A stretch of DNA of 64,000 nt from an uncultured Chloroflexia bacterium (GCA_963813705.1 CAWFAH010000007.1:262314-326313), one strand, 5' to 3'; counted from the first letter of the stretch, positions 47,844 to 50,534 are shown. A program made the numbers and translations. Notes: a model not told the origin generated them from the sequence alone.

Positions 47844-49187
47844 TCAGGCGCTCGGGATCGTCGCGCCCGGGCTGACTCGCTCCGCGGCCGGGGGCTCGCC
47901 GGCGAGGGCTTCGCGTGCGAGGGCATACGCCTCGGCATGGCGCCCCGCGGCCGCGAGCGCATCGGCCCACGCCCGAAGGACCTCCCGCAGCCGGGGTGCC
48001 GGAGCGTGGTCGCGGGCCAGCTCGGCGGCATGGGCGAAGGCGGCGAACGCCTCGTCCGTCTGACCGAGCGCCAGCCGGGCCCGGGCCAGGGTCGTCCACC
48101 CGTCGATGGCCGCCTTCGTGCCATCGGCGGCCTCGGCCCGGGCGATGGCTGTGCCCGCCAGGGCCGCGGCCCGGTCGGCGTCCCCGGTCGCCAGGGCGAC
48201 CTGGGCTTCCGTGTCGGCGAGGTGCGCGAGCAGCCGGTCGTCATCGTGGCGGAGGCCGATCGCCTTCGCCTCCGCGATGAGCTCGGCCGCCCGGTCCGTG
48301 CTGCCGATCGACAGGTAGGCGAGGGCGAGGTTGTTCTCGAGCATCGCGGTTTCGAGATCCGCCTCGGCGGCCCGGAAGAGGGTCAGCGCCTGCGTCCCAT
48401 AGCGGATGGCGGCCTCGTGGTCGCCGGCGCCGCGGTAGCCGGCGGCGAGGGAGAACAGGACGATCCCTCTGCGCCGATCGTCGAGATCGGCGCTGATCGC
48501 GCGAGCTTGCTCGAGGTAGCCGACCGCAGCGTCGTGGGTCCCCCGGTAGGACTCGGTTCCCGCCAACGCGACGAGGAGCTTCAGCTCGAAGTCCGGCGCG
48601 ACGAGCAGGCCGCCTCGAACCACCGATAGGAGCTCGCCGAACAGTCGCCTGGCTTCCTCGGGGTTGTCCTGGAGATGCTGGCCGAGGGCCAGCCAGTAGG
48701 TGGCCTCGGCATGATCGGCAGCCCGCCCCAGCCTCGAGAAGATCTCGGTTGCCTCGGACGCGGCACGAATGGCGTCAACGGGTCGGTCCAGGCGACACGA
48801 TGCTTCGGCGAGTGCCGTCAGGAGCTCGCCTCGGGCCGCGATGTCGGTCTCGGTTTCGAGAAGCCCGCGGTAGGAGGCTGCGGCACCGTCCATGTCGCCG
48901 GACGCCAGCTGCAGGTCCGCCTCGAGCCGCGACCAGGTCGTGTCAGGATCGGCCAGCAGCTCGGCCGCGGTCGTCCCGAGGCGGCCGGCGATGAAGTTGA
49001 GCGCGGCCATCGACGGCTTGGCGGCGCCCGTCTCGAGGGCGCTGATGTAGGCCTTCGTGTAGCGGCCCTCCGCCAACCGCTGCTGGCTCAGGCCGGCGCG
49101 CCGGCGGCGCTCCCGGATCCGGCTTCCGATCGATTGGGCCAGGGCCGAGTCGTCGACGACGATCCGGCGCCGCTTGATCGCGTTCAT
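47844..49187 (-). CDS. XRE-family HTH regulator fused to a long TPR-like domain
   Basis: ORF track. HTH IGSRIRERRRRAGLSQQRLAEGRYTKAYISALETG, then about 350 aa of Ala/Leu-rich helical repeats. Confidence 0.8.
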   Translation of the reverse strand: MNAIKRRRIVVDDSALAQSIGSRIRERRRRAGLSQQRLAEGRYTKAYISALETGAAKPSMAALNFIAGRLGTTAAELLADPDTTWSRLEADLQLASGDMDGAAASYRGLLETETDIAARGELLTALAEASCRLDRPVDAIRAASEATEIFSRLGRAADHAEATYWLALGQHLQDNPEEARRLFGELLSVVRGGLLVAPDFELKLLVALAGTESYRGTHDAAVGYLEQARAISADLDDRRRGIVLFSLAAGYRGAGDHEAAIRYGTQALTLFRAAEADLETAMLENNLALAYLSIGSTDRAAELIAEAKAIGLRHDDDRLLAHLADTEAQVALATGDADRAAALAGTAIARAEAADGTKAAIDGWTTLARARLALGQTDEAFAAFAHAAELARDHAPAPRLREVLRAWADALAAAGRHAEAYALAREALAGEPPAAERVSPGATIPSA

Positions 49188-49467
49188 GGCCCGAAGTGTA
49201 CACCTGGGTCAACGCCCGGTTGACCGACCCGAAGACGCTCTCCATGGTCACGTCGAGGTGGTCGGTCAGGAGCACCAGGGTCGCCAGCGAGGGAACCGTT
49301 CGCCCCGCCTCGATCGACGAGACGAGCGAGCGGGTGAGCGGGGCTCCGAGCTCGGCCTGGCTCAGCCCGCGAGCGCGCCGCAACCGCCGGATTTCCCGGC
49401 CCAGCGCGTGCGCGAACGCACTGCCCGGCCCGGCGGCCGTTTGTTTAGCAATAGTTGACAAGCGCAT
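48943..49467 (-). CDS. Small XRE-family HTH protein (3' end uncertain)
   Basis: ATG 49467. HTH LGREIRRLRRARGLSQAELGAPLTRSLVSSIEAG. After about residue 92 the ORF runs 245 nt into the next gene as Arg/Pro/Gly junk. A TGA forming ATGA with the next start (49185-49187) exists in another frame. Confidence 0.6.
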   Translation of the reverse strand: MRLSTIAKQTAAGPGSAFAHALGREIRRLRRARGLSQAELGAPLTRSLVSSIEAGRTVPSLATLVLLTDHLDVTMESVFGSVNRALTQVYTSGHERDQAAPDRRRRLGPGPIDRKPDPGAPPARRPEPAAVGGGPLHEGLHQRPRDGRRQAVDGRAQLHRRPPRDDRGRAAGRS

Positions 49468-49484
49468 CGGCGACAGCCTAGCAT
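49455..49484 (+). promoter_or_regulatory. Near-consensus promoter TTGACA-18nt-TAGCAT
   Basis: Hexamers at 49455-49460 and 49479-49484, directed at the micro-ORF and kinase. It overlaps the minus-strand TAGGCT (complement of 49475-49480) that lies 7 nt before ATG 49467. Confidence 0.5.
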
Positions 49485-49559
49485 CCGGGCCTGCGTCTCG
49501 CCACCCCCGAACGGCGGTTCATTCGGACCGCCGGGCGACGGCGCGAGGAGGGTTCGAAC

Positions 49560-49673
49560 ATGGGTGCGCGTCGTCGTTCGATCTTCGTTTCCACCATGCT
49601 CGGCGTCCTGCTGTCGCTTGCCTCGGTCGCAATCGCCCTCGCCGGAGAAGGGCCCGTTCCAGGACTTCGCTAG
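49560..49673 (+). CDS. 37-aa signal-peptide-like / single-TM micropeptide (not in the ORF track)
   Basis: AGGAGG (49546-49551) lies 8 nt before ATG 49560. Translation MGARRRSIFVSTMLGVLLSLASVAIALAGEGPVPGLR, TAG at 49671-49673. About 75 nt downstream of the predicted promoter. Third-position GC is lower than in neighbouring genes. Confidence 0.4.
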   Translation: MGARRRSIFVSTMLGVLLSLASVAIALAGEGPVPGLR

Positions 49674-49775
49674 GGCGCTACGCCGGCGCGAGTTGCTAAA
49701 TAGTGGTCTGACCCGCTATCATCGGCGCCGACCGCGACCCGGGGGCGAAGCATCCCGGACCGATGGGAGAGCGCG

Positions 49776-50534
49776 TTGGTCAGCCCAGGTCGGATCCGTT
49801 ACCCCGGGGGTCGGCCGTTGCGCGCGGTCGACCCTGCCGGGCTGTCCTCCGACGTCGACGAGGCACAGGCCGGAGCGATCACCCACGACATCAACAACCT
49901 GCTGACGGCGATCCTCGGCCACGCCCAGGTCGCGCTCACGAACCGGGACGTCGGGCCGTCGGTTCAGGCCGACCTCAGCGAGATCATCCGCGCGGCGCGC
50001 CAGGCGGCCCTGCTCACCCGCCAGCTCGTCGCGATCCGCCGCCCGCTGGCCACCGAGCGGGCGGTCGTCGACCTGCGCAGCGTCGTCGGCGCCGTCGGGC
50101 GGATGCTCTGGCCGCTGATCGGCGAGTCGATCGAGCTGCGGACCGAGGCGGGGTCGAGGCCGATCCGCGTCGAGGCGGATCCGGCGGATCTCGAGGGCAT
50201 CATCCTCAACCTCGCCATCAACGCCCGAGACGCGATGCCACGCGGCGGCACGCTCACCCTGGCCAGCTCGGTCGACCATGGCAGCGTGGGACGGCGGGCG
50301 ACCCTATCGGTCGCCGACACCGGGACCGGGATGGACCCGGCGACCCGGGCCCGGGCGTTCGAGCCCTACTTCTCCACGAAGGGCCCAGGACGTGGCAGCG
50401 GGCTGGGGCTGACCTCGGTCGCGGCCACCGTCCAGCGCAACGGCTGGAGCCTCGTCGTCGACTCGACCCCGGGTCAGGGAAGCCGGTTCAGCGTGCTCAT
50501 GCCGCTGGCGTCCCGGCGCGCCGCCCCCGGCTGA
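49776..50534 (+). CDS. Soluble histidine kinase core (HisKA + HATPase_c) without a sensor domain
   Basis: ORF track. TTG 49776 after GGGAGA, with an in-frame TAG at 49701. H-box ITHDINNLLTAILGHAQ, N-box LNLAINARDAM, G-boxes DTGTGM and GSGLGL. Confidence 0.8.
   Translation: MVSPGRIRYPGGRPLRAVDPAGLSSDVDEAQAGAITHDINNLLTAILGHAQVALTNRDVGPSVQADLSEIIRAARQAALLTRQLVAIRRPLATERAVVDLRSVVGAVGRMLWPLIGESIELRTEAGSRPIRVEADPADLEGIILNLAINARDAMPRGGTLTLASSVDHGSVGRRATLSVADTGTGMDPATRARAFEPYFSTKGPGRGSGLGLTSVAATVQRNGWSLVVDSTPGQGSRFSVLMPLASRRAAPG

What the first reader, a model, noticed from the sequence alone, without database searches (positions are those of the whole stretch)
47844..50534. HTH-TPR receptor, divergent 37-aa signal-peptide-like micropeptide and sensor-less histidine kinase: candidate RRNPP/Rgg-SHP-like peptide signalling cassette in a high-GC genome
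Seen: (i) 47844-49187(-) encodes an XRE HTH followed by about 350 aa of TPR-like repeats. (ii) A second small XRE gene lies directly upstream (49467-). (iii) Divergent from it is a near-consensus promoter TTGACA-18-TAGCAT (49455-49484). AGGAGG then lies 8 nt before ATG 49560, which opens a 37-codon ORF, MGARRRSIFVSTMLGVLLSLASVAIALAGEGPVPGLR. It has a basic n-region, a hydrophobic core, an ALA|G cleavage-like site and a 9-residue tail. It was too short for the ORF track. (iv) About 100 nt further is a 252-aa HisKA+HATPase core with no TM or sensor domain, and no response regulator is nearby. Established: RRNPP/Rgg receptors are HTH+TPR proteins that bind short peptides matured from adjacent, often divergent, small precursor genes and re-imported by Opp permeases. 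They are described essentially in Firmicutes and their phages and plasmids. An Opp/Dpp-type importer lies at 38457-44860. Inference: this is a peptide-sensing switch. Two alternatives remain. The micropeptide could be a single-pass membrane partner that supplies the missing sensor of the soluble kinase (MgrB/SafA-like). Or the locus could be a WhiJ/abaA-like XRE plus kinase cluster, as in Streptomyces.
Basis: partly seen in the sequence, partly recalled or inferred. Interest (0 to 1): 0.75.

Follow-up and report, generated by a model that had tools for sequence, protein, structure and literature searches.

The report
Peptide-signal and receptor pair in Chloroflexota
A tiny gene for a secreted 9-residue peptide sits back-to-back with a cytoplasmic HTH-TPR regulator, and the pair is conserved across an uncultured class of Chloroflexota, which looks like the peptide quorum sensing so far described only in Firmicutes.

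Summary
The 37-codon ORF is a real gene. It recurs divergently upstream of the HTH-TPR gene in at least 78 of 81 testable related loci (receptor identity down to about 48%). It keeps a Shine-Dalgarno site, a basic n-region, a hydrophobic core, a V/A-x-A cleavage motif and a 9-residue Gly/Pro-rich tail ending in [FW]-P-[KRH], or G-L-[RH] in the window's clade. pN/pS is about 0.28. Five precursors carry two tail copies. A conserved AT-rich element, TGTTTAG.AATA[CG]TTGAC, is fused to the -35 of the sORF promoter. Searching genomes for that element alone recovers the sORF and receptor in 69 and 66 of 73 high-GC hits, and in 0 of 44 low-GC chance hits. The conserved core is receptor plus propeptide. 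The small XRE is present in 47 of 74 loci. The kinase or another signalling gene follows in about 17-20%, behind a second copy of the element. Opp linkage holds only in this clade. The module meets the architectural RRNPP signature, most like PlcR-PapR, Rap-Phr or AimR-AimP rather than Rgg-SHP. It shows no demonstrable homology to those families and lies outside Bacillota. Peptide binding and import are inferred, not shown.

The parts
47844..49187 (-). Cytoplasmic receptor candidate of 447 aa: an N-terminal XRE-type HTH (residues ~14-78) followed by ~9 TPR-like helical hairpins (residues 83-428).
   Evidence: Pfam HTH_31/HTH_3 and TPR_12/TPR_2. AF2 mean pLDDT 90.3. Foldseek neighbours are LGN/Pins, PlcR and Rap. 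The family has 832+ homologues and 405 loci in species-representative genomes, almost all labelled Chloroflexota or Limnocylindria.
48943..49467 (-). Small XRE-family HTH protein. The functional part is about the first 95 codons, and the ORF runs on 245 nt into the receptor gene. It is probably leaderless and translationally coupled to the receptor gene.
   Evidence: Pfam HTH_31 at residues 21-74. It is present in 47 of 74 family loci. The typical form is 101-109 aa with a ~38-nt overlap. Its start codon lies 7 nt downstream of a minus-strand TGCTAGGCT extended -10 (the promoter reading is inference).
49442..49459 (+). Conserved AT-rich operator-like element TGTTTAGCAATAGTTGAC, an imperfect dyad (GTTTAG-N5-CTTGAC) fused to the -35 hexamer of P1.
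   Evidence: The consensus TGTTTAG.AATA[CG]TTGAC occurs in 52 of 74 loci, including loci that lack the small XRE. It scores 38.7 bits, the best PWM hit in the 64-kb window. An exact-motif scan of genomes recovers the module.
49455..49484 (+). Promoter P1 of the propeptide gene: TTGACA, 18 nt, TAGCAT.
   Evidence: Matches 10 of 12 consensus positions, and only 2 such sites occur in 4.5 kb against 0.1 expected. It is invariant in the clade alignment and conserved family-wide.
49475..49483 (-). Putative extended -10 (TGCTAGGCT on the minus strand) for a leaderless XRE-receptor transcript. It overlaps the -10 of P1, so the two divergent promoters would be mutually exclusive.
   Evidence: Read from the sequence. 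The columns are conserved. Function is inferred.
49546..49551 (+). Shine-Dalgarno AGGAGG, 8 nt before the sORF start codon.
   Evidence: An SD-like motif precedes nearly all 74 family sORFs.
49560..49673 (+). Propeptide gene of 37 codons: n-region MGARRRS, h-region IFVSTMLGVLLSLASVAI, A-L-A cleavage motif, and predicted mature tail GEGPVPGLR (49644-49670).
   Evidence: Conserved in frame, with the same stop, in L001-L011. An iterated HMM finds it in 75 of 84 loci, and three more carry variants. Differences by codon position are 0.20/0.14/0.48 and pN/pS is 0.28.
49691..49708 (+). Second, weaker copy of the operator-like element (AGTTGCTAAATAGTGGTC), overlapping the -35 and spacer of P2.
   Evidence: At 11.8 bits it is the second-best PWM hit in the whole window; the next unrelated hit scores about 0. 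The same position is second-best in every window-clade locus.
49693..49722 (+). Promoter P2 in front of the kinase: TTGCTA, 18 nt, TATCAT.
   Evidence: the -10 TATGAT/TATCAT is conserved in all clade members.
49776..50534 (+). Soluble histidine kinase core (HisKA + HATPase_c, 252 aa). Likely a regulated output in this clade, not part of the conserved core.
   Evidence: Pfam and NCBIfam hits. It is syntenic in L001-L011 at 59-97% identity. A kinase or response regulator follows the sORF in 18 of 105 loci.
38295..44860 (+). Opp/Dpp-type ABC importer (SBP_bac_5, two permeases, two ATPases). A possible re-import route whose linkage is not conserved.
   Evidence: Pfam. The linkage is found only in the window clade.

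Best explanation
This is a chromosomal peptide-signal/receptor module that works like the Sec-dependent RRNPP systems (PlcR-PapR, NprR-NprX, Rap-Phr, AimR-AimP), but in a Chloroflexota lineage related to Ca. Limnocylindria. Shown: a strong promoter (P1), a Shine-Dalgarno site and a 37-codon gene under purifying selection lie divergent from an XRE-HTH/TPR regulator, and this pairing is conserved class-wide together with an AT-rich DNA element fused to the P1 -35. Inferred: the pre-peptide is exported by Sec and cut by signal peptidase I after Ala-Leu-Ala28, releasing the nonapeptide GEGPVPGLR. The family consensus is G-x-G-x-x-P-[FW]-P-[KRH] with a free C-terminus. The peptide accumulates outside the cell and is taken up by an oligopeptide permease such as the Opp/Dpp at 38295-44860. 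It then binds the concave face of the receptor's TPR superhelix and changes how the near-invariant HTH occupies the conserved element at P1. The element overlaps the -35, so it would act either as a repressor site relieved by the peptide or as a class-II-type activator site. In this clade a weaker copy at P2 would put the soluble kinase under the same control. The small XRE is probably co-transcribed as a leaderless mRNA from a promoter whose -10 overlaps that of P1. It would be a second DNA-binding component, so the two divergent promoters would form a switch.
For: - **sORF conservation.** It is found in 75 of 84 loci by iterated HMM, and three more carry variants. It is always on the divergent strand, with an SD and mostly ATG starts, and is 35-44 aa long, or 51-61 aa with two tails.
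- **Control.** The same HMM gave 1 spurious hit in 9,982 ORF pieces from the same loci.
- **Selection.** Differences by codon position are 0.20/0.14/0.48 and pN/pS is 0.28.
- **Signal-peptide grammar.** In 72 unique peptides the n-region charge is +2 to +5, position -3 is V/A in 71, and position -1 is A in 69. The tail is exactly 9 aa in 50, the C-terminal residue is R/K/H in 64, and entropy is lowest at the cleavage site and in the tail.
- **Tandem tails.** Five precursors carry two tail copies, as described for Phr propeptides (PMC11343458).
- **Co-diversification.** Tail classes track receptor clades.
- **Monocistronic sORF.** The next gene is convergent in 43 of 68 loci, so the sORF is not a leader peptide.
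- **Cis-element.** It is conserved with or without the small XRE. The reverse search recovers the sORF in 69 and the receptor in 66 of 73 high-GC hits, and neither in 44 low-GC hits.
- **Invariant HTH.** The receptor's HTH is nearly invariant across the family, matching the invariant DNA element.
- **Structure.** The receptor models as an HTH plus a 9-repeat TPR superhelix. Its Foldseek neighbours are peptide-binding TPRs, including PlcR (E 3e-7) and Rap (RapI TM 0.70).
- **RRNPP signature.** Of the five criteria of PMC10075063, three are met: small propeptide, receptor length and TPRs. The Sec criterion was checked only by sequence features because SignalP was not run. Direct adjacency holds in 27 of 74 loci but not in the window.
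- **Importer.** An Opp importer is present.
Against: - No experiment or expression data exist for any member.
- Export, cleavage, re-import and binding are all inferred. SignalP and complex modelling could not be run.
- There is no sequence-profile match to any RRNPP-specific domain. The fold match is generic for TPR, and eukaryotic LGN scores better than PlcR or Rap.
- Exact matches to the element were seen on one contig per MAG among those listed, and there are no phage or plasmid relatives. Many RRNPP systems are multi-copy and carried on mobile elements.
- In most loci no regulated output other than the sORF itself is visible.
- Opp linkage is not conserved.
- Streptomyces relatives of the receptor have no sORF.
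Confidence: 0.6

Rival explanations
1. The sORF encodes a small exported or membrane-anchored peptide with its own extracytoplasmic job, for example in the envelope, as a surface-active molecule or as an antagonist. The HTH-TPR protein would be only its divergently transcribed regulator and would sense some other ligand or protein. There would be no re-import and no peptide-receptor contact.
For: The tail is outside the cell while the receptor is cytoplasmic. Opp linkage is not conserved. Streptomyces homologues of the receptor sit divergent from a secreted M64 peptidase and have no sORF, so the ancestral arrangement may simply be a regulator next to a secreted-protein gene. The element was seen once per MAG and no mobile-element relatives were found. 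The TPR fold is generic.
Against: A 9-residue Gly/Pro tail is too small for most structural roles. The exact C-terminus, the tail length and the tandem duplication of the tail unit are hallmarks of processed signalling peptides (PMC11343458). Receptor and peptide are kept together through wholesale changes of neighbouring genes. Tail classes follow receptor clades.
Confidence: 0.22
2. The module is a self-sensing or secretion-state sensor. The receptor would bind the C-terminus of the unexported precursor inside the producing cell, so it would report Sec or signal-peptidase capacity rather than cell density.
For: This reading needs no re-import. The precursor's conserved free C-terminus would be available in the cytoplasm before export. 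The exact element was seen on one contig per MAG among those listed, which would fit a housekeeping role.
Against: I know of no precedent among HTH-TPR regulators. Conservation of the V/A-x-A site and tandem tails separated by a spacer argue that processed extracellular products matter. Nothing in the loci links the module to Sec or envelope-stress genes beyond a LiaF-like neighbour in this clade only.
Confidence: 0.08
3. The micropeptide is a single-pass membrane partner that supplies the missing sensor of the soluble kinase, in the manner of MgrB or SafA.
For: The kinase has no sensor or transmembrane segment. In this clade it lies ~100 nt downstream of the sORF. Kinases or other signalling enzymes recur downstream in several clades.
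Against: 87 of 105 non-redundant loci keep the sORF and receptor with no kinase downstream, and in 43 of 68 loci the next gene is convergent. Where kinases occur they differ (bare, PAS, GAF) or are replaced by RR-HD or EAL proteins. The conserved part of the peptide is the extracytoplasmic tail, and its cytoplasmic part is only 5-10 basic residues. The kinase also has its own conserved promoter.
Confidence: 0.04
4. The locus is a WhiJ/AbaA-like XRE plus kinase-like cluster, as found in Streptomyces.
For: It has two XRE-type HTH genes next to an HATPase-containing protein in a high-GC genome. There is also a weak partial NCBIfam hit to NsdA-family TPR regulators.
Against: Pfam and NCBIfam scans returned only HTH and TPR families for the two regulators, with no DUF397/BldB-like protein and no WhiJ-type C-terminal domain. 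The kinase is a bona fide HisKA histidine kinase, not an anti-sigma-type HATPase. The defining partner here is a secreted sORF.
Confidence: 0.01

Closest known systems
Sec-dependent RRNPP(A) quorum-sensing pairs of Bacillota: PlcR-PapR, NprR-NprX, AimR-AimP and Rap-Phr
   Same: A cytoplasmic 250-500-aa receptor carries an N-terminal XRE HTH (absent in Rap) and a C-terminal TPR superhelix. The neighbouring small gene encodes a propeptide with an N-terminal Sec-type signal, and its C-terminal 5-10 residues form the mature signal. The peptide gene promoter appears to be autoregulated. Some propeptides carry tandem pheromone copies (PMC11343458). PlcR and Rap structures are retrieved by Foldseek.
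   Different: There is no detectable sequence homology beyond generic HTH and TPR. The phylum is Chloroflexota rather than Bacillota, and published surveys covered only Firmicutes and viruses. Exact matches to the promoter element were seen on one contig per MAG among those listed, and no relatives were found on phages or plasmids. The peptide is a Gly/Pro-rich nonapeptide ending in [FW]-P-[KRH]. In two thirds of loci an extra small XRE gene sits between receptor and propeptide.
Rgg/SHP and PrgX/PrgQ (divergently transcribed RRNPP pairs)
   Same: The receptor and peptide genes are divergent with overlapping or adjacent promoters. An operator lies at the peptide promoter. A second operator-like site sits a few hundred bp away, which recalls my understanding that PrgX uses two binding sites.
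   Different: There is no Rgg C-terminal domain (TIGR01716). SHP and PrgQ peptides are hydrophobic, lack a Sec signal and use PptAB for export (PMC10075063). The peptide here has a Sec/SPase-I-type signal and a hydrophilic tail.
pLS20 Rco (XRE repressor) / Rap (TPR anti-repressor) / Phr* (PMC3814332)
   Same: It is a three-part logic of a small XRE repressor, a TPR protein and a secreted peptide that together control a switch. From my own knowledge, that switch uses divergent overlapping promoters.
   Different: Here the TPR protein carries its own HTH. The system is chromosomal. The small XRE is dispensable in a third of the family. Nothing shows an anti-repressor interaction.
Uncharacterised Streptomyces 446-aa HTH_31-TPR regulators (e.g. 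WP_003959266.1)
   Same: They have the same length and domain order, and 46% identity over the HTH and first TPR helix. They are also divergent from a gene encoding a protein with a signal peptide.
   Different: The divergent partner is a 450-aa M64 metallopeptidase, not a sORF. No signal-peptide sORF was found in 79 loci. The TPR region is not alignable by BLASTP.

Membership tests
RRNPP signature (five criteria of RRNPP_detector, PMC10075063) | The propeptide is small (10-100 aa). | tested here: met
   37 aa in the window; 35-61 aa across 72 unique family members.
RRNPP signature (five criteria of RRNPP_detector, PMC10075063) | The propeptide carries a Sec/SPase-I secretion signal (SignalP). 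| tested here: inconclusive
   SignalP was not available. Sequence features fit: n-region charge +2 to +5, an h-region of about 20 aa, -3 V/A in 71 of 72, -1 Ala in 69 of 72, and lowest entropy at the site. My cleavage-site picker favoured A-x-A, so the counts are partly circular.
RRNPP signature (five criteria of RRNPP_detector, PMC10075063) | The receptor is 250-500 aa long. | tested here: met
   447 aa; family members are 425-460 aa.
RRNPP signature (five criteria of RRNPP_detector, PMC10075063) | The receptor contains TPRs. | tested here: met
   TPR_12 E 8.6e-19 and TPR_2; about 9 helical hairpins in the AF2 model.
RRNPP signature (five criteria of RRNPP_detector, PMC10075063) | The receptor and propeptide genes are direct neighbours. 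| tested here: inconclusive
   In the window and in 47 of 74 loci, a small XRE gene that overlaps the receptor gene lies between them. In 27 of 74 loci they are direct divergent neighbours.
RRNPPA superfamily (homology) | Sequence-profile membership in a known receptor family (RNPP_C, Rgg_C/TIGR01716, Rap, AimR). | tested here: not met
   Only generic HTH and TPR families were hit in Pfam and NCBIfam. In the PDB profile search, PlcR and ComR align only through the HTH and RapH aligns weakly.
RRNPPA superfamily (homology) | Specific structural similarity to RRNPPA receptors. | tested here: inconclusive
   PlcR (E 3e-7, TMt 0.57) and Rap (RapI TMt 0.70) are significant hits, but eukaryotic LGN/Pins TPRs score higher (E 1e-9, TMt up to 0.78).
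RRNPPA superfamily (function) | The mature peptide binds the TPR domain and switches receptor activity. | not testable with these tools
RRNPPA superfamily (function) | The peptide is re-imported by an oligopeptide permease. | not testable with these tools
   Opp/Dpp is present ~3 kb away, but the linkage is confined to the window clade.
RRNPPA superfamily (distribution) | Encoded by Bacillota or their mobile elements. | tested here: not met
   Almost all relatives are labelled Chloroflexota or Ca. Limnocylindria MAGs. There is no phage match, and plasmid matches are at the HTH level only.
Rgg/SHP | An Rgg-type C-terminal domain, and a short hydrophobic peptide without a Sec signal. | tested here: not met
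   There is no TIGR01716 or Rgg_C hit. The peptide has a Sec-like signal and a Gly/Pro-rich hydrophilic tail.
MgrB/SafA-like membrane micro-regulators of kinases | Obligate co-occurrence with, and contact to, a partner sensor kinase. | tested here: not met
   A kinase or response regulator lies downstream in only 18 of 105 loci, and the partners are heterogeneous. The kinase here has no membrane segment.
WhiJ/AbaA-type clusters of Streptomyces | A WhiJ-type XRE with its C-terminal domain, a DUF397 (BldB/AbaA-like) small protein and an anti-sigma-type HATPase. | tested here: not met
   None of these domains were returned for the four proteins. The kinase has a HisKA domain.

The most novel reading that the evidence does not exclude
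This would be the first RRNPP-type intracellular-receptor peptide quorum-sensing family outside Bacillota. It would be conserved, chromosomal and vertically inherited across an uncultured, environmentally abundant class of Chloroflexota, and it probably arose independently from generic XRE-TPR regulators that are shared with Streptomyces. It would use a new pheromone class, Sec-released nonapeptides G-x-G-x-x-P-[FW]-P-[KRH]. It would also use a two-operator divergent-promoter switch that in several lineages drives cytoplasmic histidine kinases, an RR-HD protein or c-di-GMP phosphodiesterases.
Probability: 0.5. Interest if true: 0.85.

Novelty: new variant of a known kind. Interest (0 to 1): 0.78.

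Why it matters
The papers I read treat peptide quorum sensing through cytoplasmic HTH-TPR receptors as a trait of Firmicutes and their mobile elements, and the large surveys searched only those genomes. A class-wide system in Chloroflexota would show that the receptor-plus-propeptide design is either much older or easily re-invented in other, probably monoderm, phyla. It would give a first handle on cell-cell signalling in an abundant soil and freshwater lineage that, to my knowledge, has no cultured model. 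It also makes specific, cheap predictions: a defined 9-mer, a defined 18-bp operator and a soluble receptor, all testable in vitro or in a heterologous host. Finally, the sORFs are unannotated or labelled 'hypothetical', which shows how such systems are missed.

Tried and rejected
- **Exact-protein look-up.** The receptor is not on record in the assembly collection.
- **sORF homologue search.** The first attempt failed because the query was under 40 aa. I repeated it with a 41-aa first row.
- **RNA reading of the intergenic region.** Rfam gave no match. The apparent hairpin in the kinase 5' UTR is weak in RNAalifold, at -3.2 kcal with one compensatory pair, so I dropped it as a feature.
- **Opp as a conserved partner.** Rejected, because the linkage exists only in the window clade.
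- **Mobile-element origin.** There is no phage hit, and plasmid hits are at the HTH level only.
- **Defence-system or phage-regulator reading.** PADLOC and PHROGs gave only generic HTH and TPR hits.
- **Extension to Actinobacteria.** Streptomyces homologues have no sORF.
- **Long XRE tail as a functional overlapping gene.** Rejected in favour of stop-codon loss, because most family members end ~38 nt into the receptor gene.
- **Response regulator nearby.** Only a weak receiver-like hit was found, in a ParA/MinD-like protein ~30 kb away.
- **Co-variation of tail and receptor.** Tail classes follow receptor clades, but I could not separate this from shared ancestry, so I did not use it as proof of contact.

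Full report
**1.

ORF listing and sequence reading reproduce every element.
- 47844-49187(-) encodes a 447-aa protein with an XRE-type HTH (HTH_31/HTH_3, residues 20-77) and TPR_12/TPR_2 repeats.
- A second XRE gene starts at 49467(-).
- TTGACA-18-TAGCAT lies at 49455-49484. AGGAGG lies at 49546-49551, 8 nt before ATG 49560.
- The 37-codon ORF encodes MGARRRSIFVSTMLGVLLSLASVAIALAGEGPVPGLR and its stop codon ends at 49673.
- A 252-aa HisKA+HATPase_c core lies at 49776-50534, with no sensor domain.
- A sigma-70 consensus scan of 47000-51500 finds exactly two sites. One is P1. The other, TTGCTA-18-TATCAT at 49693-49722, lies in front of the kinase (P2). Shuffles predict 0.1 sites.
- The Opp/Dpp importer is real: SBP_bac_5, two permeases and two oligo_HPY ATPases at 38295-44860.
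- No convincing receiver domain lies in the window.

One correction is needed. The small XRE ORF has no stop until 48943, so it overlaps the receptor gene by 245 nt.

**2. Source organism**

The receptor has 14 close relatives at 48-89% identity. A conserved-motif search finds 405 loci in species-representative genomes. Almost all are MAGs labelled Chloroflexota or Ca. Limnocylindria. The protein database holds 832+ homologues. An exhaustive profile search gives 292 clusters (at 50% identity) at E <= 1e-30. Only a few dozen of these are full length, after which hits become generic TPR proteins.

**3. The sORF is a real, conserved gene**

- In the 11 syntenic loci the peptide is 61-89% identical to the window's and keeps the same stop position.
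- Third codon positions differ most (0.20/0.14/0.48), and pN/pS is about 0.28.
- An HMM built from these peptides and iterated finds a match on the divergent strand upstream of the receptor gene in 75 of 84 loci, including receptors at ~50% identity.
- Three more loci carry divergent variants. Only three of 81 testable loci lack it.
- The same HMM, run on 9,982 ORF pieces (546 kb) from the same loci away from the sORF, gives one hit at E < 1e-3. That hit is an internal stretch of a hydrolase.
- Nearly every sORF has a GGAGG-like motif 5-10 nt upstream, and the start is usually ATG.

**4. Anatomy of the peptide family** (72 unique sequences)

- The n-region carries a net charge of +2 to +5.
- A hydrophobic stretch of about 20 residues follows.
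- Position -3 is V/A in 71 of 72 and position -1 is Ala in 69 of 72. My site picker favours A-x-A, so these counts are partly circular, but the pattern is obvious by eye.
- The tail is exactly 9 residues in 50 of 72. It is rich in Gly and Pro. Its C-terminal residue is R/K/H in 64, the penultimate residue is Pro in 45, and the antepenultimate residue is F/W/Y in 42.
- The window's clade uses G-[DET]-[GA]-P-x-P-G-L-[RH].
- Entropy is lowest at the cleavage site and in the tail, and highest in the hydrophobic core. This is what a cleaved signal peptide with a functional mature C-terminus would show.
- Five precursors carry two tail copies separated by a spacer (for example ...DAGGAPWPK-ATIAGPAAASPQ-DAGGAPWPK). 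This parallels the tandem pheromone copies in Phr propeptides (PMC11343458).
- Tail classes track receptor clades.
- In public gene calls, 66 such peptides appear as 'hypothetical protein' with no Pfam family.

**5. What belongs to the module**

- The small XRE is present in 47 of 74 loci and absent in 27. Where present it is usually 101-109 aa and overlaps the receptor start by ~38 nt. The 174-aa form in the window's clade is best explained by loss of that stop codon.
- After the sORF, the next gene is convergent in 43 of 68 loci, so the sORF is mostly monocistronic and is not a leader peptide.
- Synteny outside the module, including Opp, holds only in the window's clade.
- The conserved core is therefore receptor plus divergent propeptide gene.
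- A kinase or response regulator follows the sORF co-directionally in 18 of 105 non-redundant loci. These include a bare kinase in the window clade, L027 and L033, a PAS-kinase in L056, a GAF-kinase in L089 and an RR-HD protein in L043. In addition, L063 and L073 have GAF-PAS-GAF-EAL proteins. Cytoplasmic signalling enzymes are thus a recurrent but minority neighbour.

**6. Cis-elements**

- The clade alignment and the family comparison show an AT-rich element, TGTTTAG.AATA[CG]TTGAC, whose 3' end is the -35 of P1. A -10 of TA[GC]CAT follows after 17-18 nt.
- The element is present in 52 of 74 loci. These include loci without the small XRE, such as L016. It is therefore a DNA signal and not merely the coding sequence of the XRE N-terminus (MRLSTIAKQ), which overlaps it in the window.
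- It is an imperfect dyad (GTTTAG-N5-CTTGAC).
- The receptor's HTH (GLTQQQLA..RYTKAY[IV]SALE.G..KPSM.AL) is almost invariant across the family, matching the invariant element.
- I also ran a reverse test by scanning all species-representative genomes for the exact 18-mer. Of 73 high-GC hits, 69 have the sORF just downstream and 66 have the receptor gene. Of 44 low-GC chance hits, none has either.
- A PWM of the element scores 38.7 bits at P1. The second-best site in the whole 64-kb window, at 11.8 bits, is 49691-49708, which overlaps the -35 and spacer of P2. The next unrelated site scores about 0.
- The same second site, 240-300 bp downstream of P1, is the runner-up in every locus of the clade.
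- Across the family, such a site at +150 to +450 occurs in 15 of 20 loci with a downstream signalling gene, against 18 of 80 others. These loci are not phylogenetically independent.
- In some clades the second site is inverted and carries a TGnTAAACT extended -10.
- On the minus strand of P1, TGCTAGGCT (an extended -10) lies 7 nt before the XRE ATG. This suggests a leaderless XRE-receptor transcript from a promoter whose -10 overlaps that of P1. That reading is inference.

**7. The receptor**

- AF2, using a 32-sequence alignment, gives mean pLDDT 90.3. The model has an HTH followed by about 9 helical hairpins, with no membrane segment.
- Foldseek against the PDB ranks the peptide-binding TPR domains of LGN/Pins first (E ~1e-9). 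PlcR-PapR complexes follow (E 3e-7), then Rap proteins (E ~1e-6; RapI TM 0.70).
- Sequence profiles match only generic HTH and TPR families. PlcR and ComR align only through the HTH.
- PADLOC and PHROGs add nothing.
- There are no relatives on phages. On plasmids the only matches are HTH-level hits to a Streptomyces 446-aa HTH-TPR regulator. That Streptomyces family (344 loci) sits divergent from a secreted M64 peptidase and has no sORF.

**8. Mechanism I commit to (confidence about 0.6)**

This is a Sec-type RRNPP-like signalling pair.
- Shown: the conserved gene pair, the promoter and operator, purifying selection, the signal-peptide grammar, the tandem tails and the TPR superhelix.
- Inferred: export and cleavage after ALA28 to give GEGPVPGLR, uptake by an oligopeptide permease, and binding in the TPR groove.
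- Also inferred: altered occupancy of the element at P1 (autoregulation) and, in this clade, at P2 (kinase expression), with the small XRE acting as a second DNA-binding component of a divergent-promoter switch. The closest three-part analogue is Rco/Rap/Phr* of pLS20 (PMC3814332).

Rivals:
- An exported micro-peptide with its own function, regulated by a receptor that senses something else (0.22).
- Cytoplasmic self-sensing of the precursor (0.08).
- A membrane partner of the kinase (0.04). This is disfavoured because most loci have no kinase.
- A WhiJ/AbaA-type cluster (0.01). Its defining domains are absent.

**9. Comparison with known systems, and novelty**

Three of the five architectural criteria used to define RRNPP systems (PMC10075063) are met: small propeptide, receptor length and TPRs. 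Two were not settled. SignalP could not be run, and direct adjacency holds in only a third of the family. Homology to any RRNPPA subfamily is not demonstrable, and the taxon is outside Bacillota. The papers I read describe RRNPP(A) as a Bacillota and mobile-element trait. RRNPP_detector was applied only to Firmicutes and viruses. Full-text searches found nothing that links RRNPP or quorum sensing with Chloroflexota or Limnocylindria. I therefore rate it a new variant of a known kind: it works like an RRNPP system but cannot be filed as a member by descent. Interest is 0.78.

Noticed in passing
window 48943-49187 (-), overlap of the small XRE ORF with the receptor gene: The XRE ORF reads 245 nt into the receptor gene in another frame, giving 174 aa. 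In most family loci the XRE is 101-109 aa and ends ~38 nt into the receptor gene. The long tail therefore looks like stop-codon loss in this clade and a few others, not a second functional frame.
   Followed up: yes
L050, L057, L076, L078, L012 (propeptide genes): These propeptides carry two tandem copies of the tail unit separated by a 10-15-residue spacer (for example ...GGAPWPK-ATIAGPAAASPQDA-GGAPWPK). This implies endoproteolytic release of two peptides.
   Followed up: partly
L055, L066, L072 (propeptide genes): These variants have Cys at +1 after V-[MA]-A, a lipobox-like context that could divert the peptide to lipoprotein processing. Sister sequences have A, V or T at that position.
   Followed up: no
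L056, L089, L033, L043, L063, L073, L080 (genes just downstream of the sORF): Co-directional downstream genes are enriched in cytoplasmic signalling enzymes: PAS-kinase, GAF-kinase, kinase, RR-HD and GAF-PAS-GAF-EAL. L080 has a radical-SAM enzyme, and L076 and L031 have an RNase T-like exonuclease.
   Followed up: partly
L147, L100, L101, L118, L144 (about +310 to +355 from P1): A strong second copy of the promoter element (up to 34.7 bits) lies in inverted orientation just after the sORF stop and carries a TGnTAAACT extended -10. The sORF is thus bracketed by two sites, which suggests DNA looping or a second promoter.
   Followed up: partly
L215 (Streptomyces clavuligerus pF1D10B 87967-89307) and L216-L295: A 446-aa HTH_31-TPR regulator is conserved at 81-91% identity in 344 Streptomyces genomes. 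It shares 46% identity with the window receptor over the HTH and first helix. It is divergent from a secreted M64 metallopeptidase across a conserved AT-rich intergenic region, and no sORF is present.
   Followed up: partly
window 49739-49765 (+), kinase 5' UTR: A CCCGG...CCGGG hairpin lies between P2 and the kinase ribosome-binding site and is present in each clade member. RNAalifold support is weak (-3.2 kcal, one compensatory pair).
   Followed up: yes
window 47085-47819 (+): A LiaF-like membrane protein (LiaI-LiaF-like TM region; weak, sub-threshold toast-rack hit) is convergent with the receptor gene. It is syntenic only within the window's clade.
   Followed up: no
window 50577-50768 (-): A 63-aa protein with CxxC...CxxC zinc-ribbon-like motifs lies between the kinase and an ABC ATPase. 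It is conserved in the clade at 42-86% identity.
   Followed up: no
window 18591-19847 (-): A ParA/MinD-type ATPase (AAA_31) has an N-terminal ~150-residue region that gave the only weak receiver-like hit in the window. It may be a TadZ/CpaE-like protein.
   Followed up: no
L049 (about 2700-3671): The propeptide frame continues past the usual stop into a long ORF (...ALAGGGNGPSRSS...). This is either a lost stop or an assembly frameshift in that MAG.
   Followed up: no
window 38457-38560 (+), N-terminus of the SBP_bac_5 protein: The Opp substrate-binding protein has an SPase-I-type signal (...APVAA|ADP) and no lipobox Cys. To my knowledge this is unusual for a solute-binding protein if the organism is monoderm.
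   Followed up: no
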